64,000 bases of DNA from Raillietiella orientalis (lineage: Eukaryota), in the NCBI GenBank assembly GCA_036172245.1, contig JAYWIR010000002.1, positions 4,960,001-5,024,000 on the forward strand, in the 5' to 3' direction. The stretch's first letter is position 1; the number at the start of each line of letters is the position of its first letter. A program made the position numbers and the translations under genes. The notes below the pieces were generated by a model. It saw only the letters and a program-made list of their open reading frames with translations. It had not been told where the DNA came from and made no database searches. This document shows, one piece after another, positions 4,151 through 62,950 of the stretch.

Positions 4151-5117
4151 CCGAATGAATTACAGTGGACACCATTCATTATTTTCTCATTATTCAGGGA
4201 TGGAACGACCACGGCATAAAAGTATAGCCAAACGTCTTACATTCGTAGGTTCGGTTTTCGCCGGTCGGACCAAACCCAATGTACGGTCCCGAACTGTGAA
4301 CTTTTCCTCCCTAAACGACCCCGGTGTCCGTTGGACTGGGAGAAATTGGTTCTCTTTCTTCCTTCTGAAAGGCTGAGTATGAAAACAGTGTTTCTGCCTA
4401 CGCAGAAAACTCCTGAACTCAACTGCACCTGTTTGCATTATCGTGCACTCCAACACAAGAAAACAGTCTCGCGTTCACCGCCGTCGTAAAATTGGCAGCA
4501 ATTTTCAACCCATTCTAAAGGAAGCGCAGCTTAAGCAAGACAAGTTTTTTTTCTTTTCAATTCTGTATTGTGTAACAGAAGCGTCCTCAGGTATTTTTGC
4601 TTTCCTTGAAGAAAAAGATATTCATTACGTTTCATGACAGAAATGCCATGTTATATGGGTTGCTCACTTTTCCATACAGGGAATTTCCTTTACATGCAAA
4701 CTTTGTAATACCTCCGTATACGCAGGCACCGACGATCTATGACTTGCATTGGACTTTCAAGTTCCTTTCACGAAACAACTGGTCCATATCGACGTAGTGA
4801 TCCGTAAGTGCACACAAATGTAATGCACACAAACGGTTGTATACTTTTCCACCTAATGGATTCGAACACTAGTGATCTTAGTCCATTCATTTTCTTGTGG
4901 TTTAGCTGGCAGGGCAGGCAGTTGTTTTCCAATCCAAAAAATCGTAAATCCACTTGAATACCACTTTCAGATATTTGACTGATTTCAAGAAATTCATTCT
5001 CTCAAAAATTACCTTGGGAAGGCATTGGAGCAAATGAATGGATGATGGAAATTCTTCTTTTCTGTCTTCGCAGTTCTTCGACACGGTTCCACGCCGCCCG
5101 AGGGTGGGTAATTCTTC

Positions 5118-5800
5118 AAGATAGGGAGTACCCCAGGAGGGGTCCGCCCTATAAATCCAGGAAGGACTCGGAGTTTGTTCCTCTCACGTCTAGGGAATGA
5201 AGATCACCTCCACCCTGGATGTCTCCGAAGGGGAATCCAAAAGGGAATCCTCCTTCCTTATTCTCTCCGGAGGACCCCCGGGGGGGTCTGCTCAATTCTT
5301 TGTTCTCTGAAGGGAACCCGGAAAGGATCCGATCCTGGAATTTCTTCTTCAGAGGGGATCCCCCGCAAGGGATCCGCTCCTGTTTTTATTCCTCTGAAGA
5401 GAACCCCGAGGGGACGCTTCCGAAATTCAGAAGGGCGCTGCTTTCCCGAAGGGATCGGCTCGCGTCTCCGCACCCTCTGGAGAGGTGGTGGCAACACACC
5501 TACTCCATCAGTACACGCGGAGAGTCTCCCCGGAATGGAGGGTCCGCTCCTTCACAACCGTAGGGGAGCTCCCACTCCGTGATTCCACGAAGGACCCGGA
5601 GGTAGACTCCCATTTTTCCAGGCCTCATCGGGGGCATCTGGTTTTAACCACTACAGTGCCGCACCCTGATGAATGTAGGCCAACCAGAGTCATCTTATGG
5701 GATGAACTCGGAACCCATGGTGCACTGCGTCGATTCCTTCGGAGTATTCGAACCAACGAGTATGGTGCCACGCGCGGAGACCACCATGACCACCCGACCT
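5118..5800 (-). mobile_element. tRNA-derived SINE, copy 1 (uninterrupted)
   Basis: The minus strand has an A-box-like TGGTCATGGTGG and a B-box GGTTCGAATAC (plus 5744-5754). The body and 3' end (CTATCTTGAAGAATTAC) are colinear with 49060-49866 and share the motif GAAGAGAACCCCG-AGGGACGCTTCCGAAATT with the 52.7 kb and 57.3 kb copies. Confidence 0.7.
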
Positions 5801-6342
5801 CCGAAGCAGGCAATTTAATTAATTAACAGGGCAAACAATGATATGCTCACGTGAGCTGCTTACCGGAAGCTTTCGACATCCAGACCCCGCAAATTCCCTC
5901 AGCATTGGCGTGATGTTGGTCACTGCCTTCATGGTGTTGCTCGTTGGTCTGACCAGCCCAGCAGCCTTCTGCCTCCAAAGGCACCTCATGGAAGCCGACC
6001 GGGTCGCTGAGGCAGAAGGGACTGGTGGCCAACGGCATCCACGAGGTGTATGCGTTGAAGTGGAGCCCGCAAGCCGGCCGGCGCATCAAAAAGATGGCCG
6101 ACCACTCTCCGTGACCGCAAGAGCTCGTTAGCTGTTTTTCATCCCCGCTCCCGGACACCTCTGGATATCCGGAATACTACGACCTGCAGAACAGCAGCTC
6201 GATTCCCCCTTACGACACAGATGCAATGTTCCACTACCGCAGTACCGTGGCAAGACACTCGAGACGCAGAAATCCGTCTTAACCTGTCGCTTTTTCAAGC
6301 AAAGGCACGTCTTTACGAGTTCCCTCTCCCGTCGCCTCGAGC

Positions 6343-7174: not shown

Positions 7175-7480
7175 TTCACCCGGGTTTCGCCGGGGTGTTT
7201 ATTGAAAATAAACTTTAACAAAGACGTGCTGTGGCTGGACCAGTGCTCCAACCACGCACGAAGAAACACAGAGCCTGCCGGGTCACTGGTTCGCAGATCG
7301 GTACGGGGGGGATAAACAAAAAAACGAAACAAAAAGAAAAGAAAAGGTGGGATGGGCCATCGCAACGCCCTCTTCAAAAATTCGAAGGCGTGCTGGATGG
7401 CACCCTTATCGCGAGGTCCTCCCGTAGCCGTGCTCCAAGCGGCGACGATCCCGCGAAGGCAGCACCGCTTCGAGATCAGT
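7175..7480 (-). mobile_element. Tx1/L1-type LINE 3' end fragment
   Basis: Same 3'UTR layout as 16390-16600: an AATAAA on the minus strand, the motif CCTGCC...CAC(T/C)GGTTCGCAGA and an A-rich tract. Confidence 0.6.
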
Positions 7481-8321
7481 AAGTCGTGAGTCCCCTTCGC
7501 TCACATAGGTCCACATCATCGACCACTGTCAATGATGATGGCCACGTAGAAAACAGTGTGCTAACACGAAAGGGTCGCCGTGGCGACTGGCAATAGTCGT
7601 GGTTGCATAAAAAGAGTCTGTCGTGTACATTTTTCTTTCTCAATTCGGTCCTATACTAGTTTACTTTGATGGAAACATAAAAACGAAATAACAAAGATTA
7701 CTAGGGGACCAAAGTTGCTCAGATATAAATGCTATTTCCATTTTTCAAATAGAAACTATAATTGCGTTTTCCTTATTATTTCAAAAGAAAATGAACTTTT
7801 GGAAAACCGTTTCCTTCGCTAGCAATGTTCCTACGTATAACGAAAGTACATAAATTAAACAGCATACGTTAGTACATAAGAATCACACAAACAAATACAA
7901 AGTATGCAAAACTGAACCACTTTTTTGCATAAACACGCATCTTCTGTGCATAATAAATTTTACAAAATGAAGTTTACTATAAACAACATTTATTGAATTT
8001 TTACAAAATGCACATTTTCATAAACTTTGCTTTTGTAAGTACAAAACTGCAATTCAGATATTTCCTTGTAATCATCTTTATGCACTTGAAAATGTCGGAT
8101 AACTAACATTAGGTAAACTAGAACACCCTGCTAAGAACTTGGTCTGCTAATATAAACTGCTTCTCACTTGGCATTTTACATGAACAATAAATATATTAAC
8201 TTTTATTTAAAAATCATGATGCATAGTAGAAACAGTTCCATTACAAAATTGTTATTTCTAATTAAATGACTTACATATAAAATGATGAATTCGGATCAAG
8301 GATAACATTTAACTCCAAAGC

Positions 8322-13450: not shown

Positions 13451-13639
13451 AAAAAAAAAAAAAAAGATCGCCGGAGCGGAGACGTTCTTTTGATGTGGTG
13501 TTGAGCAGTAGAGCCACTCTGCATGCATGAGACGGAGGACTGCATTTCATCTCCATGAGAAATGATCTGTATTCCCTACCGCTGTAGATGATGCGAGCTT
13601 GGCAGGTTCTTGACACAAATGTGCAGCCATACTTTTCTC

Positions 13640-13795
13640 GTTGGCGGCCGTGTGGCTCCACGCGAGATACCAAGCGTTGGCAGGTTCGAATCCCCATTTG
13701 GAGGGCTGACACCGAGAAATGGGTGTGTCAGGGGGGCTTCAAATTCTCTCCGCAGAATGATGCTGGTTGGCCCATGGGCTTAAAATGCGGCACTG
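13640..13795 (+). mobile_element. tRNA-derived SINE 5' portion, truncated by a LINE insertion
   Basis: B-box GGTTCGAATCC at 13683-13693. Similar to 53584-53740 (-) and 56870-57035 (+), and ends at TGCGGCACTG (13786-13795). Confidence 0.7.
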
Positions 13796-14720
13796 GTTGC
13801 CACCTGATCACTCCGGGGAGTTTATTTATAAAACAAAGATGCACATAAACATGCACAACGTGGCAGGACATTCGATCCTGCCACGTTGCTCATAACTACG
13901 AGAAGGACCTGCTGAGAACTGGCACGCAGACCAGCGGGGTTCGCTTCGTCAGCACAGGGGAAGAAAAGACAAACAAAAAGGAAAAAAAATAAAAAAAAAG
14001 CATACAGTCAAAAAAATAAGGGGGTTCGGGAGGGGATCACTGTGTGCTGGAGGGCATCCTCTGCATCCTTGTAAGGATCCCAGCAAGTTCCTGTTTTATG
14101 ATTCCCAGATTGGGCCATCTTGATGTTGTCCTCACGAAGAGGACAGAAAAATAGATAGCATCCCTGTCTTTCCAGCCTCCTCTGGCGTTGCTCCATGCAG
14201 TCACGATCCCGCCTCCTGGTCAGCAAAGTGCTACTAGGGGTGCGACCGGCGTGAGGGTGTCGCGCAGGTAGAGGCGCTTTTAAACGTCTCTGGCGTTGCC
14301 TCCAGAGGTTCCAAAGGTCGTGGCAAAGCGACCTCAAAGGGGTCGGAGAAGAACACAGTCCACTAGGACGTGCAGAAGGATCCCCTCTCCTTGCGCCTTG
14401 CACAGTTTGGGTCCACACACACCTATGTCCAGTGATGCCGGCTGGAGTTGCACGGGAGGTCCCAGTACAGCATCATCAATGCCGACTTCCGCCATTTCAA
14501 GGGGAGAGTGCGGTGTTCATGAGCCCCGGGAGTCACTCCAAGCCTTTCTCCTGAATACCCAGTGCAAAAGTCCATGAGGTCGAGTAATCGGGGTTGCAGC
14601 GTCGGTGAGCTGGTCCGTCGTCCACTCGCCCAGTCTCATTCTCCTTCGAGGGATTTCCACAGTAACCTCCCATCTAGTTGTAAGGCTGCTGCCCATGTGT
14701 TCCTTAAATCAACAGGACTA
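13796..14720 (-). mobile_element. Tx1/L1-type LINE 3' fragment (ORF2 zf-RVT region plus 3'UTR)
   Basis: The decayed ORF2 end reads HRTLPLKWRKS...LLHVLVDCVLLRPL. 13796-14300 is closely similar to the reverse complement of 53090-53583. Confidence 0.8.
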
Positions 14721-14779
14721 AATCTGGCGCTCAAGTCCTCTAACAGAAGTTTCTTCATTTCAGCAGCCACAGAAGGGGG

Positions 14780-16100: not shown

Positions 16101-16389
16101 TTTGCTACACAGAAATTGCATATAAAAAATCGAAAATATGCCCTCTTCTCTCCTTCACCAAACAGTTTCAGTAATAAAATTCCAGGAGAAGCTTGCTAAC
16201 CAATTTACAGATTGCAGCCGGATGCTGCAAACAGATGTGAAACGTGATTAAAAATATTTAGAAAGACGCTACTCGGATCTCAATACCATGATATCAGTTT
16301 GATTCCGTTTAACATGGCTGATTATTAAAGACATTAAAAATGCCCCTTTCCCTCCCTCCCCGAAAAAGTCTTTCTCGATCATCGCGTCC

Positions 16390-17340
16390 GGGTGCTCCAG
16401 GCATTTATTTGAAAAATAAACATATAACGAGAACTGTGGTTCGACCACGGCTCCGACCACGCACAATTTAATGGAGACCTGCCGCGTCACCGGTTCGCAG
16501 ACCGACGCGGTGCACTACGGCAGCAGAGGGGAGGAGACAAAAAAAAAAGAAACAAAAAAGAAATACACTTTGGGTGGATATGGGTGGCAGTCCTGTCCAT
16601 CTTCTGTAGGATATCGGCAAGGTCTTGCTGGATATTCCTTTCCAGGTGGGGCCATCGCGTTGCTATCCTGATGAAAAGGACGGCGAAGTGGATGGCATCC
16701 CAATCGCTGGGTCCTTCTGTTGCTTTGCTCCATGCAGTGACGATCCCGCGTTAGGCGGCACAGGGCTGCCAGCGAGGCCGCTGGCCGGTCGCAAACGAAG
16801 AGGGGTTTTAAAGCGTCCCTGGAGTTGCTTCCGGGGGTCCCCAGGGCAGCGGCAAAGTATTCCCAGAGGGGCCGGAGGGCAACACAGTCCACTAGCAGGT
16901 GGGGGAGGGATTCACGCTCCCCGCACCTGACACACTTGGTGTCCACACATCCTCGTGCAACAGCAACAACATCGACTCCTGCCACTTCAAGAGGAGAGTG
17001 CGGGTGTCCATGAGCACCGGGACCACTTCAGGTGTGCCAATAGAACTCCCAGTTGCTCGCCCCAGAGCGAGAGTCCATGGGGTGGTGTACTCGGGAACGC
17101 AGCGTCCGTGAGCTGGCCCGTCTTCCATTCACCCAGTCATTTCTCGCTTCCGGAGATGGTCACCGTAACTTGCCATTTCGACGCGATGCTGTTGCTCAGG
17201 TGTTCCCCGAGGTAGGGCAGCGCTGCGGCGAAGTTCGTCCTGCCTACAAAAAGCCTTTCTTGAGGAATCCTTCGTAGGTCTCGCCTTTCACTACGACGAC
17301 GTCCCCCACCACGGCAAAGGGCTCGCTTTCGCATCTGCCA
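16390..17340 (-). mobile_element. Tx1/L1-type LINE 3' fragment (ORF2 CCHC zf-RVT plus 3'UTR)
   Basis: DTKCVRCGERESLPHLLVDCVALRPLWEYF matches the CxxC-E-H-C finger at the end of L1/Tx1 ORF2. The 3'UTR has an AATAAA, and the fragment is homologous to 13.8-14.7 kb. Confidence 0.85.
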
Positions 17341-18486
17341 TCTCCCGGAAAGGTCACACTCGGATTTGATAAAAAAAAAAAATGAAGATGAAATGAAATT
17401 TAAGTACCAACACATGGGCCTTGAAAAACAAGTCTCACTGTGAAATTTCGAAGCAAGAGCCTCGCAGGCTGGACGAACGAACCGAGCGAGCAGCTACCGA
17501 TGAACAGACCAACTAATAGCACCGGAGAACGAAACAAGTCACTGTACCCATACTTCTGCGCCCTCAGCCCAACGCTCGGGCCCCTTAGATAAAGAGAAAG
17601 GATCTCGTTATTTATCAGTTACAAGAGACCTCAAACAGACCGCGAAGACCTTGCAGATCTAGAGCTTAATGCTTTCAGCCTGATGATTTTGTTTTGCTGT
17701 TTCTTCTTGTAGGGGTAAGGGTCATCAAGGATGCGGCCGACGCGACCTCCGCTTCTCCACCGCGAACTCTTGAGCGTTATTGGTCACTAATGCAGGTCAA
17801 CCATTCGTTCGCTTTGACCCTTTCGCGAGCGAGAGGCACCTCCACGTGCAATGGAAATTGAAATGGTGCACTTATCCCAGGGGTATCCAGGATTCCTTCC
17901 AGCCGTGCTCAAAGTAACAAAAAATAGAAACTAAAAGAATAAAAAGTGATCCAAGCGCATATAAATCATTAAATGGTTTAGTCAACTGAAAAGTATCCAT
18001 AGCCATCGTCCACCGGAAATGGATTTGGAATCAGTAACTTAATTTTTCTTTATCTTGCCAAATGCAAAACTTAACAGTTGTTTGCTTTGTAAGTTACTTC
18101 AGTGTACATTTCAGGTATGTGTCATTTGAAGTTCAGTTCAAAGCAGTTTGATATGATCCAAACAAAGTGAGCATGTTTCCTGCGAATTATTTGTAATCAA
18201 TTACAGAAATGGTGTTTGAGAATCAATATTAGACACTTGGCATCAAAGTTTTTATCATGGCTTAAAACTACTAATATACTTTTTTTTTAAACAAATGAAT
18301 TGTCAAAATTGTGTTTGTACGTTACCAGATTAAGATGTGAATTTCAGGATTGCATTCTGAGGACACAAAAGCTGGCACTGTTATGTTCACTTGAGGATAA
18401 ACATGTAATAGGTCAGCAATGAAAATATTCAGTTTTAAGTACCTCTAAGTACCTCTAACGTAAAGGTTAGCAAGATCAAAACTACA

Positions 18487-41177: not shown

Positions 41178-41326
41178 AGCTGTTTCCACCTTTGTCCGCT
41201 GAGAGGAACGCTAACAGTACATAGCACCAGAACCATAGAAAACGTTCAAAGTTCTAGAACGTTTTCTGTGGTTCTGGCACTGTGCACTGTTAGCGTTTCT
41301 CTTAGCAGAGAAAGATGGAGACAGCT
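41178..41326. repeat. 149-bp inverted repeat (70-bp arms, 9-nt spacer)
   Basis: Arms 41178-41247 and 41257-41326 align without gaps and differ at 11 positions. Confidence 0.92.
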
Positions 41327-47353: not shown

Positions 47354-47795
47354 CTGCTAAACCACGTTTATAAGTTCTAGTGAATAGTCTGCAACCAATT
47401 CTATTCAAAGTAGCCCAACACATTGCCGGAACTCTCTCTACTTGAAGATGTCTCACTACCACCTGCCACATTTTTCTTCGCATATGAATATGTTCAGGAA
47501 GAAGGTGGGTGCGAAGAAAAGGAGAGTGACGAATGGTAGAGGACTTGTAAGATCTTTGGTGATAAAAAAAAAATGGTCGGAAGGCACGGTTTCTTTTGGT
47601 TCTTAAGGGATTTGTGCGAAATTCTTCAGAAGAAAGAATAGGTGTGATATGACGACAATTGCTATGATGAAAGGTAAAGTGTATATATACTTTTTAGTAT
47701 CTTGCATACTGAAAAGTTCCAAAGATATATGTGTGTGTGTATCTCTGTATCTACCTATATCTATATCTATCTACCAATCACCCCCCTCTCTCTCT

Positions 47796-47950
<155 letters not shown>

Positions 47951-48859: not shown

Positions 48860-49020
48860 ACAAGAGAGAGCAACGAAAGGGTCGGGTTTGTACCAGGGAG
48901 AGTCCCAGACTGTGCCGGGTGAGGGGAGCGGGAAAACTTCCCGCACCTGTTGTTGGATTGTGTTGCCCTCCTGAGTGTCCGGGAACGCTTCGCTGCGGCC
49001 CTCCCCCACTCCCGATAGGA
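48860..49020 (+). mobile_element. Tx1/L1-type LINE zf-RVT fragment
   Basis: GERENFPHLLLDCVALLSVRERFAAAL matches GERESLPHLLVDCVALRPLWEYFAAAL at 16.9 kb. Confidence 0.75.
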
Positions 49021-49059
49021 GACGGCAGAGAGGTCTTCGTCGGAGGTCTGAGAGGCCCG

Positions 49060-49866
49060 CGTCGGAGGCTTTGTGATTAAGGCGTCCGCGCGTGGCACCA
49101 TGCGTCGTGGGTTCGAATACTTCGGCAGATAACTGACGCCACTGCGTCGTTTGGGTTCCGAGTTTCTCCTGCAACGGCGCTGATTGGCCGAGACATTCGG
49201 GCGTGGCTTCGGCGGTGGATAAAGCCGGAGGCCTCCCGATGAAGGCCGGAACAATGGGAGTCGACCTTCGGGTCCTCCCAGGAATCAAGGAGTGGGAAGT
49301 TTCCCCTCCGGTCGTGCAACGGAGAGCGGACCCCCGTCACCGGGGGACCGCCTCCGGTTTCAAGATGGAGCAGGAGCCATGACGGGGACCTCTCCAGTTG
49401 TTCAAAGTTGGGGGGATCCTCCGAGTCGTCGCCTCTTCACAGAGTGTGCACAAGGAAGCAAGCGAGAGCGATTCCCTGCGGGAAGCTGCAACTCCCCTTA
49501 ATTTCGTAAGCGTCCTTGCGGAGTTCTCTTCAGAGGAGTGAACAGGAGCGGTTCCCTTGCGGGTTCCCTGCGGAGAAGAAATTCCTACAAGCGGATCCTT
49601 TCCGGGTTCCCTTCGGAGAAGTTGAAATGGAGAGGACCACCCTCCCATTAGGGAGGTGTCCCTCCATTGAGAATGAGGAAGGAGATTCCCTTCGGGGTTC
49701 CCCTTCGGAGACAACCAGGGTGGGAGGTGCGATCCCCCCCGTCTGGGGGCATTCCTCCCCAAGCGTGAGAGGAACGGACTCCGAGCCCTTCCTGGATTCA
49801 TAGGGCGGACCCCCATCCCGGGGTGCCCCCTATCCTGAAGAATTACACTGAAGAATTACACACACC
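49060..49866 (+). mobile_element. tRNA-derived SINE, near full-length copy with a repeat tail
   Basis: B-box GGTTCGAATAC at 49110-49120. The body is colinear with 5118-5800 (-), and the 3' tail is (TGAAGAATTACAC)x2. Confidence 0.75.
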
Positions 49867-52456
49867 CCTGCGGGTTGCCGCGGGCGGAGAGGCGTGGAAA
49901 CAAAACACTGTTAATGTTTAAAAAGAGCCACGTGCGCCGCGAGGCACGCGACCGGCTCTGAGGTACTTAGCAAACCAGAGAGGTCTTGCGGCGCCTCTTC
50001 GCGCGCAACTCGATGTCGTCTGGCAGCTTCCCTTGCAGTCACCCTGCTGCCTTCGTGGGATCGTGGCGGCGCGAAGCCGCGTCGAAAGATACCAGTCGAA
50101 GGATGAGGTCATCTCAATCGCCTGCAACTTCGTGAGGAAGACGACAAGACGGCCAGATCTCTGCCAACGAAAGGAGGAATCCCAAGCGAAACTGCCTCGC
50201 TATCCATTTTCCTGTCGGAACGGGAGCAGACGACAGTCTGCACAATCCGAGACGACCGATGCATAACGGAAGCCATCTGTTGAACGGTACAGTTGTCCAG
50301 TGGTTTTGGATTCTGGTTTGTGGAACGTTTCTGGACGTGCCTCACGATGATCTCCAAGGATGAAGGCGTTTACCTCGTCGGGATGAATCTTACACCGCAG
50401 ATGCAAACAACGAAAAAACACACACACATGTGCGCAGAAAAAAAAAAAGGAGGAAGTTGTCAACGCCCTCCAGAGAGTGCTGAGGATGCCAGGAAGAAAT
50501 CCGTGATCCTTTCCTTTCCCTCCCCAACACATTTTTTTTAAACTGAACTTTTGTGTGTGTGTGTGTGTGTTTTATTGTTTACCCCTTCCCCCACTTCTCC
50601 TATGCGGACCTCACTGGGGGAGCTGCTCACCAAAAGCAGAGCCTCCGAGGCTTTGTCCTTCGAGGTGGTGCTGCTGTGAAACCACCACAAAGGAAGGCAT
50701 TTTTTCATCTTGTTAATATGACTGTTTGTAAATATTTCATTTTATTTTTGCAATAAATGCCTCGACGTGACCAGGTGAAATAAAGGGTCGGGTTTGCATA
50801 AAGCGAGGTTTTCAAGGAGACCAAGTCCGCAGACCTCATCTGTGAGGACAGTCGGTTGCAGAACGTCGGCAGAACATTTGGCGTTCGTGACCACATCACC
50901 GAAACTGAGAATGGTACGCCAACACTATGAACGTGGGCACGTCGAAAGCATCTGCACTGTGATTAACCGGAAGGAGAGAGAGAGAGAGGAGGGGGGGAGA
51001 TGAACTTGCCTGGTGCTGTGAGGAGCATTCCCAGAGAGTTTCCTCTGGGATACGTCCGGGCAAGGGATCTCGGTTAACGACAGCTTCGACCAGCTGCTGC
51101 CCTCCCCCTTGGTTTACAACTCGTTGGGCTACTTTCTCTCCACCCTACGTGAAAGGCATTGTGTTCCAGAATGCTGTCGTAGCTCTTTAGGTGAAGGGGG
51201 CAGGAGCAGAACCATTGGCTCCGTTCGTGTGGGACCGAAGCGCATTCGCCTCAAGAAACGTGACAGGAACTGGCTAACGAGTCTGGAAGCACATCCAGGG
51301 AACGAAGGGGGCTCGTGCAAAAGACATGCAGGTGAAACTTTCCTCCTTCTCTCTTTCCTCCGCTCTTATCCTTCGAAAAGTCACAGCATGCCCCGGAAAG
51401 CGACCTCATGACTCCAGCTTGCTGTCGTCTTGTGCACAGCATGCATGATCTCATCTGGAAGAAAATGAAGCGTTGCTTAACTGGGGTCCAGCGAGTTTCC
51501 AACGCAGTAGGAAGATCATTTTGAGCCAAATCAAAAAAAGAAGAAGAAAACATTGATGTATCTAAGCACCATGTTTTTATAATGCTATTTTAGTATATAC
51601 ATTTTTTAAACGCATGCATCCACAAATGTGATAATGGACATACGTGGTCGTAATGCAGCCATGACCATGACGTTCACTGCTGGATTTTATTCGTTAGCAT
51701 TTAGTAAAGGAAAGCCGATGCCAGCAAAAGTCGGGAGCAGATTAATCGGGAGGAAAAGATGAGAACTCACAGGACTGAGCTCGTGATCCGAAGCAATCGA
51801 GACTGCTGACATTCAGGCTTACTCTGGTGCTCCGGAGAGAGAGGCGAGTTGTCTTACAACTGACATGTCTTTCTCTCTCGTAGTAAATCCTTGTAGGATC
51901 CTCGTGAATCCTTCCAGCTCCCGCGAGGGAGGAAAGGGGTGGAAGGAGAGGATAGAGCGCGCTCCCCGAGAGCTGACTGCGCACTCAGCCCATCTTGAGA
52001 GGGCTGCTCCTCCCCGCAGCCCGCCTGCTTTCGTGTTGAAGCACTGCTCGTAGGGTTCTCTAGGAGTCCGGGAATCCACAGAATGGTCAGGAGCTGAACG
52101 TCTCCCACCTGGGGAAGGAAACGGCGCGCCCCAGCGTCCAACGTTCTCACGGGAACACAGACTGCTCTGCGTCGGCTTCGCCCTCGAAATCACGAACCAA
52201 CTCGTGGACTGAAGGGACCGGGCGTGTAAGGACAGACAGCGGAGAACACCTCATTGTTTGCATCTGACCTTGTCCAGAATTGACAAAGGCGAGGATGCTG
52301 GAAATCCTTTTGGGTTCTGTTCTCGCCGCTGTCCTTCCAGTGTTTTTTTTTGGGGGGGTTCGTCAAGTTCTGAAGAACCGTTCGCTTCCTTGGGTGGGTT
52401 CACTCTCTTTGACACTCTTTAACACTGTCCACACCACTTGAGGGTGTGCGCGTCCA

Positions 52457-53740
52457 CTATTCTTCCAGTTATAGGGGGCCGCCCCGGAGGGGCCACCATA
52501 TGAATCCAGGAAGCCTCCAGGGGAAGGAGTCCGTACCTCTTACTCTTGGTAGGGGATCCCGGAGGGACCTCTTCCCTATTATCTCCGGAGGAATTCCCCA
52601 GAGGGGGACACGACTCCTCGTTTTCTTCTCCGAAGAGCCCTTGTGAGAGAAACCCGGAAAGCATCCTCTTCTTGTTACTCCTCTGAAGAGAACCCCGGAG
52701 GGACGCCTCCAAATTTCCCTGAAGCGCCGCTCCCCGAAGCGAGCAGTGCGCTTCTTACACTCTGAAGAGGTCACACCCAGAGGGGGGTATCAACCAGCTC
52801 CATGGTAACTGCTCCATTTTCACAACTGTAGGGGAACCCTGAGGGACTCCTCGATTCCCGGAAGGACTCCAGAAGGTTCACTTTCAATCTTGGAGGCCAG
52901 TCAAGGGTGGGGGATACATCCTGGGGTTTCCGGAATCCATCAGTGCCGCATCTAGCGCCTCCTGACGCTGGAGCGAATATAGCTGCAGCTCCAGTTCGAA
53001 CACTTGCCCTCGTGGCAAACCTCTGGAGCACCACCTGGTTCCAACCCGCAATCCTTCTCGTCCAGCAAGCTACCGGCAGCGTGGGACTTGAGGCAACGCC
53101 AGAGACGTTCTTAAGAGGCTCTTCTTGGGAAACGCCCTCACGCCGGCCGCATCCCCACCAGCACTTTGCTGCCCAGGCGGCAGGATCGTGGCTGCATGGA
53201 GCAATGCCAGAGGAGGCCGGAAAGACAGGGACGCTAGCTATTTTGCTGTCCTCTTCATGAGGACAACGTCAAGATGGCCCAATCTGGGAACCATAAAACA
53301 GGAACTTGTTGGGATCCTTACAAGGATGCAGAAGACACCCTCCAACACACAGTGATCCCCTCCCGAACCCTCCTGTTTTTTTGACTGTATGCTTTTTTTT
53401 TATTTTTTTTCCTTTTTGTTTGTCTTTTCTTCCCCTGTGCTGCCGAGGCGAACCCCGCTGGTCTGCGTGCCAGTTCCCAGCAGGTTTCTTCTCGTAGTTA
53501 TAAGTAACGTGGCAGGATCAAATGCCCTGCCACAGACCTGCATGTTTATCTTATAAATAAACGCCCAGTGACCGGGTGGCAACCAGTGCCGCACCCGAGT
53601 ACATAACAACCAGTGCCATCTTACGGAGAGATTTCAAACTCGTGACGCAACCGTTTCTCAGTGTCCTCTCCCGGGTGGGATTCGAACCCGCAGCGTCTGG
53701 TACCACGAGCGGAGGGCGCAGCCAGGCGGCTGCCATCGTG
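52457..53740 (-). mobile_element. tRNA-derived SINE split by a LINE insertion
   Basis: The head lies at 53584-53740 (B-box on plus 53678-53688) and the body at 52457-52950. The two halves rejoin at a duplicated CAGTGCCGCA. Confidence 0.75.
52951..53583 (+). mobile_element. 5'-truncated Tx1/L1-type LINE flanked by a 10-bp target-site duplication
   Basis: 53090-53583 matches the reverse complement of 13796-14300. CAGTGCCGCA occurs at 52941-52950 and 53584-53593. Confidence 0.8.
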
Positions 53741-54729
53741 GAGTCCAGACTAGGAAGGAAAAGTCCCGAAGAGTTTTCCCTACACTCGGCAGAAAAATAC
53801 ACAAGATCGGAAGTAGTTGCTAACCTAACGAAGATCATCACTAGAGCCATCATCCAAGATGGCGGCCACACAGCTGGTTTCTCTAGTCCCATGTGACCTC
53901 TGCTTTGCTTCCAAGGAGGCAGCAGGGTAAAGTGGGAAGGCGACTGACAGAGCATCAGTCGAGGCTCCGAAGAGCATTGGTACTTCGGAATGGAGTTGGC
54001 CATCAACGCGTAACTCGAAAGTCTGAATACCAACAGAAAGACAGCAAAAGGTAGAGGGAGGTTCCAGACTACGCAAGCCAGGGAGACTTGCCCCAGAGCG
54101 CAGAGGGATCTCCAAGAAAGAGGCCGCGGGAGTAGAGCAGGAATGAGAGAAACCAGCACGGTGGCTGGGTGGCATCCCATTCCACCTATAGGAAGTGAGG
54201 CGGATTTTCCTTGCTGTCTGAAGGGTAGAGGAAAAGACATGGCAGAAGGGGGGAACCGGAAATCTCGGCTCGAAATTCCTCCGAAACGCAGACGAGTTGC
54301 TCCGTCATGCATTCTGGCGAGTGAAGCCGCTGGGCTTTCCGTTTCTGTCCGCACAGCGATGCTGGACACAGCGGAAAATGCGTTTTGCTCTTTCCATCGG
54401 GATCCTGGGATCCAGAGAAGTGGGAAAGCATTGCCTGAGAAGTGCCGGACTTTGGAGCGACAGAGCTTCGCAGTCTAGGGAGGAAGATGATAAAGTGGCA
54501 GGAAGCTATGCGTACCCAAGCAGGTGGAACGCGGTTTTGTGAGGAATCCTGAACTTGGAAGGAAACCGACTTTCCAACGGAGGCTGCCCAAGATCTCTCG
54601 CACCCACCAGGGGCGTACGAAGCGAGTCGGTGGGAGGTCAAACTCACCCGAGCGTGTTCTGCAAGTGAAAGACGCTTCGCAGTCTCGCATCCCAGCGCTC
54701 GAGAGAAAGAGAAAAGGAAAACAAAGTCA

Positions 54730-56431: not shown

Positions 56432-56869
56432 TGTTCCAACGTTCCAACGGAGGAAAATATTTATCTCGCTCGTTCCGGGACGCATGTGGCCTCAGAGAGC
56501 GTGCTCGACTGGGTGGTGCTCGCAAGGGATACGTCACGCCCGCACGCTCTTTCCCTCAGTGGGCTCCGTGATCAGGAGGCCTCTGTGACCTCCTGGGAGG
56601 GCAGGTTGACTGACGCGAGGAATTAGGGAGGGGCCTGGGCCCCGATTGGGGGTGGTGGAGTGGGAACCTACAATACGCCTTCGTCAGGAAAGGAGACCCG
56701 TGGCCATGAGTCGCTGCGACGAAATAGGTCACGATGACCGAGTCACCCGGGGCACGGATCCCGGGCATGTCTTCTGATTGCCGATTCGGGAGTCGCGAAT
56801 CCTGGAAACGAGAGAGGAGGAGCGCGCGCAAAGACGCAGTCGCGCCATGAGCATTCCTGCGCTGACGGC

Positions 56870-57480
56870 TGTGAGGCTGCGGCTGCCGAGCGCACAGCAC
56901 TGAGCCGTCGCGGGTTCAAATCCCACCCGGGGAGGGATTGACCCAGAGAAATGGGGGAAAGGGGTGCGTCATGAGTTTCGAGTTCCCCCCCTTTCCTGCA
57001 GGATGATGCTGGTTGGCCTATTCGGGTGCGGTACTGTCAGAAGCCGGAAACCCCCGTCGACTGACTTCCAGGATTGGAAGGTGACCCTCCGGAGTCCTTC
57101 AGGAATCGAGGAATCGGTTCCCTTAGGGATTCCTTTCCTGTTGTGCAAATAGAGTCGTGCCACGTAGCTAGTTAATACCCCCTCGGGGAATTCGCCTCTC
57201 CAGAGCATCAGAAGCGCGCCGCTCCCTCCGCAGACCACCTTTCAGGGTGAAATTTGGAAGCGTCCCTCCAGGGTTCTCTTCAAGGGAGAAAACAGAGGAA
57301 GGCAGAAGGGAGGAGGAAGGGAAAAATGTAAGGAGGAAAAGAGGAAATGGAGGAGTAAGGATCCTTTCGGGAGTCCCTCCGGAGAGCAAACCCCAGAAGC
57401 GGATGACTTCTGGGTTCCTTTCGGAGGAGAAACGAGGATCTCCTCCCTCCTCCAGGGGTGGTCCTTCCGGAAAGAATCAC
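56870..57480 (+). mobile_element. tRNA-derived SINE, diverged copy
   Basis: B-box GGTTCAAATCC at 56913-56923, then GATGATGCTGGTTGGCCTA..GGGTGCGGTACTG and the body motif AAATTTGGAAGCGTCCCTCCAGGGTTCTCTTC. Confidence 0.65.
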
Positions 57481-58549: not shown

Positions 58550-61500
58550 CTTTCCGGCTGTTCTTCGCGCCGCAGAGGATTGCGATGGCGCGGCAGGCGG
58601 CGTTTCGCTGAATCGTCGTCTCCAGGAATCACCCTGCAGGGTGGCCGTTGCGAGGTGCTGCTGCCACACTCTCTGGGAGAAGGGGCAGGGGAAAGACATG
58701 GTCATGTCCGCGTGATGGACAGCTGGACCCAGACTCCCCCTCTTGTCCAGTAGTGCCGGCTCAGTGATATGACGCTGCCGTATCGCCGAGAGCTGCCGCT
58801 CCAGAGAAGGCGGAACCTCTAGTGAGGGTCGCAGGGATCCCGAAGTCTTCCAGCAGGGGGAGTTCGCCACGTGGTTCTCCTCCGGAAGAAAACCGCCGTG
58901 TAGGTGGCACTGAGGCTCTTTTCTGTTGCTCCGTGAGCCTACGACCGTGCCGCAGAGGTGGCTGAGGGTCGCTCGGAGGAATTGGTAGCTGGGGAGATCA
59001 CAGCTGACTTCCCGCGTGCCCGACGCGGATCACGTCCTTCTCTGCTCCTGGGCGAAGGGGTTCCCTGCTTCCCTTATTCTGGAGGTGACAAGCTTGCTCC
59101 TCGTGCGAGTCCCCAGGCCGCCTCTTTGGGAGGAGGGGGGAGCAAGCACTCTCTTTTTCCAGATGACTGGCCGGCGCTCATCCGAGCGTCCGTCGAGTCG
59201 AGCCCCCATTTTGACTCTTGACGAACTTCAGCTCGAAGTACGGGAATTCCAGGAAGCGGTGGCGGCCCCGCCTTCCCGTCTCGTCTCGGGTCGTCTCGGT
59301 GCGGACTGCCGTAGGTAACCCGCGATCCCGCTCGGCGGAAACTCGCACAGGAGGAGGATCAACCCGGCCGTTGACCGGGAACTTCACGAACGCGCCGCCA
59401 GCTTCCAGGAAGTCGCGATAGCACGTGCTGCACTGGCCGATCCGTTGGAGTTCGCCTCGCTTCTTGAGTGGTCTTCTTAAAGCCCCTCCGGGCTCTGTTG
59501 CCCCCTCTTCTCCCTTTCCATCAGGTTGCAGGCTGCTCGTCCTCCGCATCCCCATCCGCGAGAGCGCGAGTGTCTTCCGGTTCACCCCGTCCCGCCCCGC
59601 CCCCCCCCGCTTGTTTTCGACGGACGTGTCTCTCGCCATCAGCGCTCGCACCCTTTCGACGCTGCGCATGAGCGCGCAGACGAGAGAAGGGCGGGAAAGA
59701 GAAAAACCCCGCGGATCGCTCCTTCCCCTGCGGCCGTCGTCGTCTCCCGCGCAGCATCCTCGCCGGGCCGCTCCGCCCATCGCTCTCTATCGGCGTCTTC
59801 CTGCTGGTCCTCCTGGAAGGCGCCTTTGAAACCTGCTGCCTTCCAATCAGATTCAGCGCTCTCCCGTCTTCCTCCGTGGGACACGACACCGCCGCTGTGC
59901 TGACATCAACTTGCATCACTGCGCGGCTGAAGCCAGGTGACCAAGCGGGAGATGCCCTTCTCTTCTTCTCCTTGTCCCCTTTTGCTCTTCCTCCGCTTCC
60001 TGCTTACGTTCGTGCGAAGGACCTCACGGAATGGGTGAGTGGGCTCGACCCCTTTCTGCTTGCTGCAGCTTCAGGCATGCGGAGCATTTTGGCCCGACTC
60101 TCGCCCGCCCTTTGAGAAAGGCTCGGCGAGTGATGCTCCTCAGGGGGCCATGAGATGAGAAGATTCTCGGGGGCTCCTCTTTCCAGAGGAGAGCAGGGGA
60201 AGGGAGGGAAGGGGGTCTTCGATCTTTCGGAACGCGGCTCCATACGGGCACTGCGCTCGTTAAAGGGCATCATCAAGCCATCCGGAGTTCCGCGCGCGCT
60301 CCCCGCGGGGCTAGCCTAGCCACGGGGGACACGTATCTGCCAGAGTCCCATTTCCTCGGGAGAGACCCTGCCTTCTTCTCTGGGGGAGAGCAGGGGAAGG
60401 GAGGGAGGGGATTTCGATCGTTTGGGCCGGCGCAAGAGGGAGTGGGAGATTTGGCTTTCCGCTGAGGCGATCGGCCACCCACGGATCTCCTGCCACTTCG
60501 CGAACTGGGACGCACGGCGGCGGGAGGAGGCCCGGAACGGGGGAAAGGGAGGTCCCGGACTGTTCCGGGTGTGGGCGGCCCCAGCGCATCTGCTTTTCGA
60601 GTCATGCGTGCCCTCCAGAGAGCGCGTGAAGCGGCTCGTCCGCGTCCTGGGAGTAGCCGAGGGCACCATGCGAGAGGCGTGCTGAGGAGAGAGGGAGGCT
60701 CTTCTCTCGCGTACTCTGACCGCAGCTCTGCTGTGCGCAAGCACGGGTCGAATGCCAGAGGCCAGCAGGTGTCGGTAGGGCGTCGGAGTCTCGGACGCTC
60801 ATACGAGGTCAGAGAGACGCGCAGTTAGGTGGAGAAAAGGATACCCACAGGATGCTCCACTTTCTCCCGGATGCGCTGGGGGTCGTTTGTCGTAAAATAA
60901 ATGAATAAATAAGCAAGTAAATATTTACAATAAGCAGTCACGATATTAAAATAGCAGTCCCTTCTTCGGGGAGCTGGAATCCCGCTACGTCGAAGAAAAC
61001 CCGGGAGGCATCTTTGCTTGCAAGCAGCTTGCCCGCAGAAGGTCACGCGCAGGAGTGGGGAGGATGAGGGCGGGGGAGGGAGGGACGCGGAAACAAAAAA
61101 TAATAATAAAATAAGGGGAAGAAACGAAAAAGAAAAACAATATTTTTTCTTTCTAATAAAAACGGGAGGGAAGGCAGGGATCACAGATGTCTTCCCAGCG
61201 CCTTCATTATCCTTTACGGGATGCTGGAAAGTTCTTTCTTCTGCCGTTGGAGATGCGGCCACCTAATGGTCATCCCGAAGAGGGAGATCTCCGCATCTTA
61301 GAACTGTCTGGTCTCTTTCTCTGTGGCTCTTTGCTGCCATGGCTCCACGGACGCGGCACAGGTCACCGCGGGCAACGTCCCGCCACGCGCGAAGAGGCGT
61401 TTCGAGCGCGTGCTCTTCGCTCCGTCCCTTAGGGGTCAAAGCGGCCGCTGCAGCACGTTCCCGTAAGGGAACGCACTCAGGTGTCGGACGTTTAGGTCTC

Positions 61501-62950
61501 CTCGCTTGCACGTGCACCTGACTCAGCCTGGAGGCACCCTTCCCCCTGGTCCAGCGGCGAAGGCAAGTTCTGCTTCCCTCGCGCGGCGGCAGTGCCGGAG
61601 GAGTGGGAGCAAACCCCAGAAGCTGTTGTGGGGACATGGAAACTCCCACGCATCTGTTGCCTCTGGGATGCGGAGTGATCACGCCTCGCGGTCGCGCTGC
61701 TTCGATCTCTGCAGACGCCCCAGAAAGGTGGCAGCTCTGTTTCACGCGGGACGGGGAGAGGGGGTTCCTGTCGCCTGCTTCTGCGATCGGCTCGCCATCC
61801 AGGAGGATCGCGGCGTCCACGGAACACGCAGGAGGCGCGTCGGGAATGATGAAGGACCACAGCTCTCGATCCCGCAATCATGAGGAACGCGGAGGAATGG
61901 TACCTGAAGGAGATGGGCATGAAGGAGGATGCCGCCTGCATCTCACGCGAGAGCCAAAAGAGCAGAGGCAGATGACCCCATCCCCCTCTACCTATTTCTT
62001 GTCATTTGCCCTTCTGTGCAGCTGGTCCGCGAGTCGATAGTTCCCTTTTTATTCCTTCCTCCCCTGAGTTTTTTTAAATATCAGTGGATTCTATAATCCA
62101 CGTGGTCTGTTTGTTTTTCCTTTTGGGAATGACTGGATGAAGATGGCATACTGACGTGCGTTGCCAGGGGAAACCCAACGCCGGATGCTGCCATCTCAGG
62201 AGGAGCACGGAGCCGTGCAAATGGAATATCCGCAGTATCCAAATGGATTCCAAGGGGATCCGCCCAGCGAGGAAGACTTTTGGGGTGGATTGAGAGGTGA
62301 CTGCCTTAGCCAGTCGACGTCCAGCATCCCAGCGATTTTCTTTTTCGACTCCCGACTCCCGATTTGCTCGCTGGTCACTCCTGTTGCTATCCCGGATGGA
62401 AAGGCAGTGCTGCCGCAAGTGTTTTTTTTTCATTCCACGCATTCTTCCCGGAGCCTTTCGCGATCTCCTGCAAGGACCAAAGAGCGTGATCTCAGCGCCG
62501 CGCAGGCACAACGACTTGTTCCCTCCCCCCTTTCCCCTCCTCGGGGGCGACCCTCCACCAAGTTCCATGGAACTGGTAGATACCCCCTCGGCGGGTTGCC
62601 TCTCTTCCGGGTGCAAGGAGAGGAATTGCTTTCAGACACTGCGTTGGTGGGTGGGCGGGAGAATCCAAGGTTGCCCTGCACCAAGGCAACCATATGGAGA
62701 GGTCACCACCCGCAACGGTGGCTTTGCCCGAGAGGAGACGCAAGTCCCGTCGGAGCTGGCTGCTTGCTTGGCGACCGCCGCCGCTCGGGAGGAGTGTGCG
62801 GGGAAGGAGGTGGAAATTTGTCGTTTCCGAGGGAGTCGGATCTGGCAGGGTACATCGGAGTACCCTCTAGGCGTTTCGGACACGGGGAAGACTTCGGCAG
62901 CTTCGGGCAAGTGGATGAAACAGCAGAGAGCCACTTCGAAGGGAAAAACG
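58550..62950 (+). mobile_element. GC-rich field of decayed non-LTR retrotransposon fragments (probably Tx1/L1 ORF1/ORF2)
   Basis: No intact ORF. A twice-repeated GEQGKGG(K/R)G..D segment (about 60187 and 60384) resembles the post-RT LPxxxGGLG motif, and LVAGEITADFPRARRGSR resembles RT subdomain 4. Boundaries are approximate. Confidence 0.4.

What the first reader, a model, noticed from the sequence alone, without database searches (positions are those of the whole stretch)
52941..53593. LINE inserted into a SINE at a fixed site with a 10-bp TSD: a SINE-targeting retrotransposon?
Seen: the insert 52951-53583 is flanked by CAGTGCCGCA on both sides, and removing it restores the SINE. The uninterrupted copies read ..CAGTGCCGCACCC.. 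at about 5654 and ..CAGTACCGCACCC.. at about 57030 (-). At a second locus (13786-13800, minus strand) the same LINE 3' end joins the same site: ..GGTGGCAAC|CAGTGCCGCA. The two host SINE heads look clearly more diverged from each other than the two LINE tails, which favours independent insertions over duplication of a composite. Known: Tx1-clade elements are often sequence-specific (U2 snRNA, 5S rDNA, tRNA arrays, other transposons). Inference: this LINE uses a SINE family as a renewable landing site.
Basis: partly seen in the sequence, partly recalled or inferred. Interest (0 to 1): 0.75.

Follow-up and report, generated by a model that had tools for sequence, protein, structure and literature searches.

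The report
Retrotransposon tail repeatedly hitting one SINE site
A young LINE-type retrotransposon lineage in an arthropod genome has landed twice, independently, at exactly the same 10-base site of a SINE-like repeat, which points to a site-specific element that uses another repeat family as its landing pad, a strategy already known for other LINEs.

Summary
The insert 52951-53583 is flanked by exact 10-bp CAGTGCCGCA copies, and removing it restores a SINE-like repeat seen intact at 5069-5842 and 56834-57469. At 13796 (-) the same 3' end (..GGTGGCAAC) abuts the same 10-mer in another copy.

The two events are independent:
- LINE parts are 441/496 (88.9%) identical, while the host repeat heads are 95/141 (67.4%), no closer than either is to an uninterrupted copy.
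- The 5' truncation points differ.
- The outer flanks share nothing.

Limits:
- n = 2.
- The second locus has no 5' duplication and no repeat body on its far side.
- None of the four older relatives of the LINE in the window has a match to the repeat at its 3' flank. The two with readable ends sit in other targets with duplications of 15 bp and about 18 bp.
- No reverse transcriptase or endonuclease domain survives in the window, so "Tx1 clade" is untested. Only a weak zf-RVT-type CCHC motif supports LINE identity.
- The tRNA origin of the "SINE" is also unconfirmed.

LINEs that target other transposons are known (Tx1L/Tx1D, Tx1-Mar/Mariner). A SINE-like target looks like a new variant of that kind. 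A genome-wide census was impossible because no eukaryotic DNA collection was available.

The parts
52941..52950 (+). Left copy of the 10-bp target-site duplication CAGTGCCGCA (original SINE-like sequence)
52951..53583 (+). LINE copy A: a 5'-truncated non-LTR retrotransposon tail. It holds the ORF2 C-terminal 87 codons (53092-53352, stop at 53353-53355), a 3' UTR with a T-rich tract, a stem-loop (53509-53517 paired with 53525-53533), AATAAA at 53556-53561, and the terminus ..GGTGGCAAC with no poly(A). The first 136 bp (52951-53086) are only weakly colinear with the CCHC region of other copies.
53584..53593 (+). Right copy of the 10-bp duplication
52358..52950 (-). SA body: the 3' part of the interrupted SINE-like repeat (3' end ..GACGAAC at 52358)
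53584..53778 (-). SA head: the 5' part of the interrupted SINE-like repeat, with the B-box-like GGGTTCGAATCC
13796..14705 (-). LINE copy B. It has the same 3' end ..GGTGGCAAC and is homologous to A over 13796-14305 (88.9%) and to older copy C up to about 14705. Its 5' limit is uncertain (a composition shift at about 14700-14745). It abuts an AT-rich hAT/ZBED-like relic, not the repeat body.
13603..13795 (+). SB: head of a second SINE-like copy, ending in the 10-mer (13786-13795, read as CAGTGCCGCA on the minus strand). No body is found anywhere beyond LINE B.
5069..5842 (-). S1: uninterrupted SINE-like copy with an exact, unoccupied site at 5654-5663
56834..57469 (+). S3: uninterrupted SINE-like copy; site with 1 mismatch at 57027-57036 (-)
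49038..49975 (+). S2: complete SINE-like copy (938 bp) with its site diverged at 5 of 10 bases. It is itself inserted into older LINE copy E, with a 12-bp duplication CAGAGAGGTCTT (49026-49037 and 49976-49987).
48891..50781 (+). LINE copy E: an older relative interrupted by S2. It ends ..GGTGAAAT and has a 15-bp duplication AAAGGGTCGGGTTTG (48876-48890 and 50782-50796) in a target that is not the repeat.
16376..17242 (-). LINE copy C: an older relative, about 66% identical to B. It carries the best-preserved CCHC motif (ORF 16518-17027). Its probable decayed duplication of about 18 bp (17243-17260 and 16358-16375, 14/18 matched by eye) lies in a target that is not the repeat.
7175..7490 (-). 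LINE copy D: an old fragment of the same family, ending ..GGGTGAAAAT. No match to the repeat at its 3' flank.
61092..61564 (-). LINE copy F: an old fragment of the same family. No match to the repeat at its 3' flank.

Best explanation
A young lineage of a non-LTR retrotransposon (copies A and B, about 11% apart) integrates by target-primed reverse transcription at one defined site of a roughly 0.9-kb SINE-like retroposon, in antisense orientation.

Inferred steps:
1. The element's endonuclease nicks the repeat's sense strand at 5'-..GGGTGCGGCACTG^-3'.
2. The exposed 3' OH primes reverse transcription directly at the RNA terminus ..GGUGGCAAC. The element has no poly(A) tail, and a conserved 3' UTR stem-loop probably serves RNA recognition.
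3. The other strand is cut 10 bp away, which gives the CAGTGCCGCA duplication.
4. Copying stops early, which gives 5'-truncated copies.

What is shown:
- One clean insertion with a 10-bp duplication.
- A second, independent 3' junction at the identical nucleotide and in the same orientation.
- An exact 10-mer next to otherwise strongly diverged repeat sequence.

What is inferred: the nick positions, that specificity lies in the endonuclease, and that the repeat family serves as a safe, self-renewing landing pad. The clade (Tx1, R1, L1 or other) is unknown.
For: The TSD and the restored repeat rest. The same junction at locus B rests.

Independence of the two events:
- The LINE part is 441/496 identical, against 95/141 for the heads (p = 7.5e-9).
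- At non-CpG sites the figures are 401/440 against 79/117.
- The SA and SB heads are 66.2% identical. That is no closer than SA-S3 (68.6%) or SB-S3 (67.8%).
- The 5' truncation points differ, and B holds LINE sequence that A lacks.
- The outer flanks share no homology.

Both of the 2 young copies lie at the site. By my own arithmetic, with 5 repeat copies in 64 kb, a second random hit on the homologous base and strand has a chance of about 5/128,000, or 4e-5.

LINE nature:
- Six copies share a 3' end and have variable 5' ends.
- Duplications of 10 bp, 15 bp and about 18 bp are present.
- The ORF ends in a CCHC motif. Its direct zf-RVT E-value is 0.013-0.03. The only 2 hits among 1.84 billion representative proteins both carry zf-RVT above the Pfam cutoff. 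In the ESM Atlas, 24 of 30 feature hits are zf-RVT clusters.
- A 9-pair 3' UTR stem is predicted in 5 copies, and 2 of its pairs show compensatory changes.

Precedent: LINEs that target other transposons are documented (PMC4494074, passages read; PMC5035012, introduction passage read).
Against: - There are only two events, both from a single 64-kb window.
- Locus B has no second copy of the 10-mer. It has no repeat body beyond the LINE. No shared 8-mer links its 5' junction region to the region beyond the head. Its 5' side is therefore unexplained and needs a target deletion or a later rearrangement.
- An exact site in S1 and a 1-mismatch site in S3 are unoccupied.
- None of the four older family members C, D, E and F has a match to the repeat at its 3' flank. 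C and E used unrelated, T-rich-nick targets. Any specificity is therefore confined to the A/B lineage.
- No endonuclease or RT sequence is available to tie specificity to a protein.
- A's first 136 bp do not align to B. They are only weakly colinear with C and E (shuffle p = 0.14-0.19), so A may be a mosaic.
Confidence: 0.65

Rival explanations
1. RNA-guided rather than protein-guided specificity. Source copies sit inside repeat copies, and their transcripts read through into the flanking antisense repeat sequence. That 3' extension then anneals to nicked DNA of other repeat copies, as described for co-transcribed R1/R2-type elements. The junction is therefore reproduced without a highly specific endonuclease.
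For: The 10-mer next to the LINE end is 10/10 identical in A and B. The adjoining repeat sequence is hypervariable (CCCGAG.. against TTTTAA..) and the heads are 67% identical overall. The element has no poly(A) tail and ends about 22 nt after AATAAA, so its 3' end formation is not obviously autonomous. PMC4494074 (discussion passage read) notes that co-transcription with the target can strengthen target-specific integration.
Against: Any read-through tract carried into the new copy can be at most 10 nt, because A and B diverge immediately after the 10-mer. In A the left duplicate, which must be original target DNA, is identical to the right one, so nothing requires RNA-derived sequence. Ten nucleotides of pairing would not by themselves place the nick.
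Confidence: 0.15
2. A structural or sequence hotspot rather than targeting of the repeat family. The site contains a 9-bp near-palindrome (GTGC-C-GCAC) in a conserved island of the repeat. An endonuclease with a short motif preference, or a fragile DNA structure, could make this spot a frequent entry point. The repeat would matter only because it multiplies the motif.
For: The palindrome can be read directly from the sequence. The 10-mer is exact in S1, SA and SB and has 1 mismatch in S3, although heads of different subfamilies are only 53-60% identical. It therefore behaves as a conserved island. All 4 exact copies of the 10-mer in the window lie in repeat copies, so use of the motif outside the repeat cannot be judged here.
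Against: This differs from the main explanation in emphasis only. Two hits at the identical phosphodiester bond, in the same orientation, still require sequence-directed nicking. The cut positions are not symmetric about the palindrome centre (reading).
Confidence: 0.12
3. One chimeric unit (a LINE tail joined to the antisense repeat head) was made once and then copied, by amplification of a composite repeat, by 3' transduction or by segmental duplication.
For: The A-B alignment runs without a break from the LINE tail through the junction into the repeat head (53087-53714 against 14305-13656, 82.5% over 652 bp). B has no duplication of its own.
Against: Identity drops from 88.9% to 67.4% exactly at the junction (p = 7.5e-9), and does so at non-CpG sites too. 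The two heads are no closer to each other than to the uninterrupted S3. The 5' truncation points differ, and A has the repeat body with a duplication where B has LINE sequence. No flanking homology exists. Even if B were a transduction from a third locus, that locus would itself be a second insertion at the same site.
Confidence: 0.04
4. The insert is not a LINE but another kind of mobile or non-autonomous element, for example a LINE-derived 3' fragment moved in trans or a different element class.
For: No RT or endonuclease domain was found in any copy: 0 of the 210 ORFs scanned carried one (23, 124 and 63 ORFs). The direct zf-RVT match is below the Pfam cutoff (E = 0.013-0.03). No longer relative was found for A's 87-aa ORF tail, and there was no PDB match. 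All six copies are under 1 kb of element sequence.
Against: A shared 3' end with variable 5' ends, duplications of variable length, no terminal inverted repeats (reading) and an ORF that runs into the element from its 5' edge and ends about 230 nt before the 3' end form the classic picture of 5'-truncated LINE copies. A trans-mobilised fragment would still report the specificity of a LINE machinery.
Confidence: 0.04

Closest known systems
Tx1L inserted into Tx1D in Xenopus laevis (Tx1 clade; cited in PMC4494074, introduction passage read)
   Same: An autonomous LINE integrates at a defined site inside copies of another, non-autonomous transposon family, so a dispersed repeat serves as its landing pad.
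   Different: The Tx1L target is a piggyBac-type DNA transposon, not a retroposon, and the host is a vertebrate. Clade membership of the present element could not be tested because no RT or endonuclease survives in the window.
Tx1-Mar families of crocodilians targeting Mariner-N4_AMi, with Tx1-9_AMi targeting Harbinger and Tx1-8_Crp/Tx1-4_AMi targeting LTR retrotransposons (Kojima 2015, PMC4494074, results passages read)
   Same: These show preferential insertion at particular positions of another transposon family. That includes insertion in the opposite orientation to the target (around position 240 of Mariner-N4_AMi). Independent insertions were inferred from many copies.
   Different: Their targets are DNA transposons or LTR elements, and the evidence there rests on many copies (for example 77 of 88 flanked). 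Here the target is a SINE-like retroposon, with 2 copies, in an arthropod. That paper's criterion (more than 20% of flanks share a sequence) is met only nominally here: 2 of 6 family tails, or 2 of 2 young ones.
R1-clade target-specific LINEs of arthropods. PMC4640811 (introduction passage read) names early-branched elements, Tx1 and R1 as the three groups holding most target-specific families. The member names R1, TRAS/SART, Waldo and Mino are recalled, not from a call.
   Same: Arthropod host, an APE-type LINE group rich in sequence-specific lineages, precise 3' junctions, and members without long poly(A) tails (recalled).
   Different: Their known targets are rDNA, telomeric repeats and microsatellites (recalled, plus the PMC5035012 introduction list). 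No RT is available here to place the element in this clade.
R2 and other elements co-transcribed with their target (discussed in PMC4494074, discussion passage read)
   Same: A precise junction at one site of a multicopy sequence. Target-derived sequence on the transcript may play a role in homing.
   Different: R2 uses a restriction-like endonuclease and 28S rDNA. Here at most 10 nt could be transcript-borne, and the type of endonuclease is unknown.

Membership tests
Non-LTR retrotransposon (LINE) | Reverse transcriptase domain in ORF2 | tested here: inconclusive
   No RVT or endonuclease Pfam hit in the 23, 124 and 63 ORFs scanned. All six copies are 5'-truncated to under 1 kb, so absence is expected and says nothing either way.
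Non-LTR retrotransposon (LINE) | Common 3' end with variable 5' truncation, flanked by target-site duplications of variable length | tested here: met
   Six copies share the 3' region and have different 5' ends. Duplications: 10 bp for A, 15 bp for E, and about 18 bp, decayed, for C (matched by eye).
Non-LTR retrotransposon (LINE) | ORF2 C-terminal CCHC zinc-binding motif (Pfam zf-RVT) | tested here: inconclusive
   The direct E-value is 0.013-0.03, below the gathering score. Support is indirect. The only 2 library hits (E = 8e-5 and 7e-4) both carry zf-RVT above the cutoff. In the ESM Atlas, 24 of 30 feature hits are zf-RVT clusters, top score 0.94.
Tx1 clade | RT-domain phylogeny placing the element within Tx1, with an APE-type endonuclease | not testable with these tools
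   No RT or endonuclease sequence exists in the window, and no longer relative was retrieved.
Target-specific LINE (operational criterion of PMC4494074: one sequence type in more than 20% of flanks) | Recurrent identical 3' flank in independent copies | tested here: met
   2 of 2 young copies, and 2 of 6 family copies in the window, join CAGTGCCGCA plus the repeat head. Independence is shown. The sample is very small.
SINE (tRNA-derived, SINE2) | Head derived from a tRNA with an internal Pol III promoter | tested here: inconclusive
   ARAGORN finds 0 genes. Rfam finds none at gathering or at E <= 1 over the whole window. On the SA head alone the tRNA model scores 13.3 bits (E = 4.4) against a gathering score of 29, and nothing is found on the S2 head. 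Only a B-box-like GGTTCGAATCC is present in 4 of 5 copies, with GGTTCAAATCC in the fifth (the consensus is recalled).
SINE (general) | Short, non-coding, dispersed, flanked by duplications | tested here: inconclusive
   Five dispersed copies, and no Pfam domain in overlapping ORFs. S2 has a 12-bp duplication, but at 938 bp it is longer than usual for a SINE.
LINE-SINE partnership (shared 3' tail) | Significant similarity of the last 50 nt or so of the repeat and the LINE | tested here: not met
   Local alignment of the last 50 nt of S2 and SA against those of A, B and E gives shuffle p = 0.30-1.0. Only the final ..CAAC / ..CAAAC / ..CGAAC look alike.

The most novel reading that the evidence does not exclude
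The A/B lineage has switched from the loose, T-rich nick sites of its older relatives (C, E) to a single 10-bp site inside a SINE-like retroposon. That retroposon is itself mobilised by the same LINE family. The nesting in the window is reciprocal: the repeat sits in LINE E, and LINEs A and B sit in the repeat. On this reading an autonomous element would be using its own non-autonomous parasite as a self-renewing safe haven. The window would also capture a recent change of target specificity within one LINE family.
Probability: 0.15. Interest if true: 0.7.

Novelty: new variant of a known kind. Interest (0 to 1): 0.45.

Why it matters
Target-specific LINEs are the natural models for programmable, site-directed RNA-templated insertion. 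They also show how mobile elements limit harm to the host by landing in expendable repeats. Published targets include rRNA, tRNA and snRNA genes, microsatellites, telomeric repeats, DNA transposons and LTR elements (PMC5035012 and PMC4494074, passages read).

A retroposon of the SINE type as a dedicated target would add a case in which the landing pad is itself amplified by LINE machinery, so the supply of sites grows with retrotransposition. The window also holds older relatives with ordinary targets. If a full-length copy exists, that gives a within-family contrast for mapping which endonuclease changes create a new specificity.

I found no report of a SINE-targeting LINE in five full-text searches. 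Those searches do not cover Repbase Reports or most subscription journals.

Tried and rejected
1. Single-chimera or duplication model. Rejected on divergence, truncation points and flanks.
2. CpG decay as the cause of the faster-diverging heads. Rejected: at non-CpG sites the heads are 67.5% identical against 91.1% for the LINE part.
3. 3' transduction for locus B. No shared 8-mer exists between 14640-14900 and 13300-13800, and no tail follows the head. This is unsupported, and it would still need a second hit at the same site.
4. 5' inversion or internal deletion to explain A's first 136 bp. There is no significant match in either orientation to B, C, E or F. There is only weak colinear similarity to the CCHC region of C and E (p = 0.14-0.19). 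This remains unexplained.
5. A shared LINE/repeat 3' tail. Not significant. One search used a wrong S2 end, which one search corrected.
6. Clade assignment.
- Pfam on 210 ORFs gave no RT or endonuclease.
- A protein search with A's 87-aa ORF tail against longer proteins gave none of 566 candidates.
- An exhaustive HMMER search with C's 170-aa ORF gave 2 weak short hits.
- The PDB gave none.
7. tRNA origin of the head. Not confirmed by ARAGORN or Rfam.
8. A six-frame read-through of 13800-18500 for Pfam was rejected by the tool because of stop codons. It was replaced by ORF-by-ORF references.
9. Genome-wide census. Not possible. The genome collection holds only bacteria and archaea, and the phage, plasmid and E. 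coli collections are irrelevant, so none was queried.
Full report
**What is there**

The window is eukaryotic. Two large exons at 8325-10197 (-) encode SWIRM, Myb/SANT and SWIRM-associated domains. Their translation is 77-78% identical to SMARCC2/moira proteins of beetles, cockroach and cricket, and 72-74% identical to those of crustaceans and chelicerates. The host is therefore an arthropod that is not itself represented closely in the protein collection.

GC content runs from about 32% to 62%. The GC-rich stretches are repeats.

**The host repeat**

A profile built from the copies finds five members and nothing else at E <= 1:

| Copy | Coordinates | Strand | State |
|---|---|---|---|
| S1 | 5069-5842 | - | uninterrupted |
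| S2 | 49055-49900 (full insert 49038-49975) | + | uninterrupted |
| S3 | 56834-57469 | + | uninterrupted |
| SA | 53778-53579 and 52953-52409 | - | split in two pieces |
| SB | 13603-13795 | + | head only |

S2 is bounded by an exact 12-bp duplication, CAGAGAGGTCTT, at 49026 and 49976. That gives a 938-bp insert at 49038-49975.

The head carries a B-box-like GGTTCGAATCC, but a tRNA origin is not confirmed:
- ARAGORN finds nothing.
- Rfam finds nothing at gathering or at E <= 1.
- On the SA head alone the tRNA model reaches only 13.3 bits, against a gathering score of 29.

I therefore call it a SINE-like retroposon. Copies are old and heterogeneous, with head identities of 53-69%.

**Check of the observation**

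- CAGTGCCGCA occurs exactly four times, all in this repeat: 5654 (+), 13786 (-), 52941 (+) and 53584 (+).
- The pair at 52941 and 53584 brackets a 633-bp insert. The neighbouring bases differ, so the duplication is exactly 10 bp.
- With the insert and one duplicate removed, SA aligns without a gap across the site with S3 and S1.
- At the second locus the minus strand reads ..GGTGGCAAC|CAGTGCCGCA, followed by the antisense head of SB.
- In both loci the insert is antisense to the repeat.

**Is the insert a LINE?**

nhmmer finds six copies of its family:

| Copy | Coordinates | Strand |
|---|---|---|
| A | 52951-53583 | + |
| B | 13796 to about 14705 | - |
| C | about 16376-17242 | - |
| D | about 7175-7490 | - |
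| E | 48891-50781, interrupted by S2 | + |
| F | about 61092-61564 | - |

They share the 3' region and differ at the 5' end, which is the pattern of 5'-truncated LINE copies.

An ORF enters from the 5' edge and stops about 230 nt before the 3' end. In A this is 87 intact codons at 53092-53352. Upstream, copy C keeps a CX2CX7HX4C motif followed by ..RPLW.

Support for a reverse-transcriptase-associated zinc motif is real but weak:
- The direct zf-RVT E-value is 0.013-0.03.
- The only two hits among 1.84 billion representative proteins (E = 8e-5 and 7e-4) both carry zf-RVT above the Pfam cutoff.
- 24 of 30 ESM Atlas feature hits are zf-RVT clusters.

The 3' UTR has a T-rich tract and a stem-loop. 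The stem is predicted in all five copies compared and has 9 pairs, 2 of them with compensatory changes. The UTR then has AATAAA and a short terminus without poly(A): A and B end ..GGTGGCAAC, E ends ..GGTGAAAT and D ends ..GGTGAAAAT.

No reverse transcriptase or endonuclease domain is present in any of the 210 ORFs scanned. A's ORF tail has no longer relative in the word-indexed protein collection, and C's ORF has no PDB relative. The clade is therefore open.

**Independent insertions or one copied chimera?**

The A-B alignment runs straight through the junction, but identity changes sharply there:

| Segment | All sites | Non-CpG sites |
|---|---|---|
| LINE part | 441/496 = 88.9% | 401/440 = 91.1% |
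| Repeat heads | 95/141 = 67.4% (10-mer excluded) | 79/117 = 67.5% |

The difference over all sites is significant (Fisher p = 7.5e-9). The non-CpG figures come, whose head alignment includes the 10-mer.

- The two host heads (66.2% identical) are no closer to each other than each is to the uninterrupted S3 (68.6% and 67.8%).
- The 5' ends differ. A stops after 633 bp and is followed by the duplicate and the repeat body. B continues for at least 910 bp with LINE sequence that A lacks.
- Nothing outside the elements is homologous.

Together these exclude amplification of one composite. Even a 3' transduction origin for B would require another insertion at the same site elsewhere.

With five repeat copies in 64 kb, a second random insertion would hit the homologous base and strand with a chance of about 4e-5. 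That figure is my own arithmetic, not a tool result.

**Weaknesses**

- Locus B has no second 10-mer and no repeat body anywhere beyond the LINE.
- No 8-mer is shared between B's 5' junction region and the sequence past the head.
- B's 5' side abuts an AT-rich, degenerate hAT/ZBED-like stretch (zf-BED E = 0.0019). B therefore documents only a 3' junction. Its 5' side needs a target deletion or a later rearrangement.
- A's first 136 bp do not align to B. They are only weakly colinear with the CCHC region of C and E (p = 0.14-0.19), so A may be a mosaic.
- S1 has an exact site that is empty, and S3 has a 1-mismatch site that is empty.
- None of the four older relatives has a match to the repeat at its 3' flank. 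E has a perfect 15-bp duplication, AAAGGGTCGGGTTTG. C has a decayed duplication of about 18 bp (14/18 matched by eye). Both lie in unrelated sequence whose inferred nick follows a T-rich run. Specificity, if real, is therefore a property of the young A/B lineage.

**Mechanism**

The best reading is target-primed reverse transcription, with four steps:
1. A first nick on the repeat's sense strand after ..GGGTGCGGCACTG.
2. Priming directly on the RNA terminus ..GGUGGCAAC.
3. A second nick 10 bp away.
4. 5' truncation.

The exact 10-mer sits beside a hypervariable stretch of the repeat. This fits either of two readings. The endonuclease may select intact sites. Alternatively, up to 10 nt of read-through sequence on the RNA may assist homing, and no more than 10 nt, because A and B diverge immediately afterwards. 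The site contains the near-palindrome GTGC-C-GCAC, and the cuts are not symmetric about it.

**Comparison and novelty**

LINEs that use other transposons as targets are established:
- Tx1L in the piggyBac-type Tx1D.
- Crocodilian Tx1-Mar families at defined positions of Mariner-N4_AMi, including in opposite orientation.
- Tx1-9_AMi in Harbinger elements, and others in LTR elements (PMC4494074, abstract and passages read).

'Transposons' appear in the published list of LINE target classes (PMC5035012, introduction passage read). I found no report of a SINE-type target in five full-text searches. Those searches miss Repbase Reports and most subscription journals, and the supplements of the papers read were not opened.

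This is therefore a new variant of a known kind. It is credible but rests on two events. The test I ran for a shared LINE-repeat 3' tail, which would have made the repeat the LINE's own dependant, was negative. Even so, the reciprocal nesting (S2 inside LINE E; LINEs A and B inside SA and SB) shows that the two families were active over overlapping periods.

**What could not be done**

No eukaryotic DNA collection was available, so the decisive genome-wide tabulation of 3' flanks, the trees, and the recovery of a full-length copy remain open.

Noticed in passing
8325-10197 (-): Two large adjacent exons of a SMARCC2/moira-like chromatin-remodelling gene, with SWIRM, Myb/SANT, SWIRM-assoc_1 and SWIRM-assoc_3 domains. 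They are 77-78% identical to insect orthologues, which places the window in an arthropod.
   Followed up: partly
48876-50796 (+): Reverse nesting. Older LINE copy E (15-bp duplication AAAGGGTCGGGTTTG) is interrupted by the complete SINE-like copy S2 (938 bp, 12-bp duplication CAGAGAGGTCTT). The insertion point lies about 11 bp downstream of where A-B homology begins.
   Followed up: yes
52951-53086 (+): The 5' 136 bp of insert A do not align to copy B, although the next 497 bp are 89% identical. They show only weak colinear similarity to the CCHC region of C and E. Possible explanations are a mosaic or template-switched copy, or a different subfamily sharing a conserved 3' module.
   Followed up: partly
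53509-53533 (+) and the equivalent positions in copies B-E: A conserved 9-bp stem-loop in the LINE 3' UTR (GUGGCAGGA..UCCUGCCAC in A). Compensatory changes occur at 2 of its pairs across 5 copies. It is a candidate RNA recognition element of a 'stringent' LINE.
   Followed up: partly
14639-16195 (-): An AT-rich, frame-shifted hAT/ZBED-like relic directly upstream of LINE B (weak zf-BED, E = 0.0019, with transposase-like motifs by eye). It is unique in the window and may be the sequence into which the SB/LINE B complex was joined.
   Followed up: partly
25013-27643 (+): An 877-codon open frame made largely of diverged tandem repeats (many self-matches across 25468-27116, 72-87% identical). It has only sub-threshold Pfam hits, and its nature is unknown.
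   Followed up: no
47782-47904 and 41178-41326: Two near-perfect hairpins (self inverted repeats of 93% and 81%). Both have sub-threshold Rfam miRNA-family matches: mir-5014 at 38.8 bits against a gathering score of 101, and mir-5897 at 30.5 bits against 90. They are probably MITE-like palindromes rather than those miRNAs.
   Followed up: no
5654-5663, 13786-13795, 52941-52950, 57027-57036: The 10-mer is a conserved island in an otherwise fast-diverging part of the repeat. It is exact in 3 of 5 copies, has 1 mismatch in S3 and 5 mismatches in S2. It contains the near-palindrome GTGC-C-GCAC.
   Followed up: partly
28667-29392 (+): An ORF with a sub-threshold calponin-homology domain match (E = 2.7e-5, 24.8 bits against a cutoff of 26). 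It is possibly an exon of a host gene.
   Followed up: no
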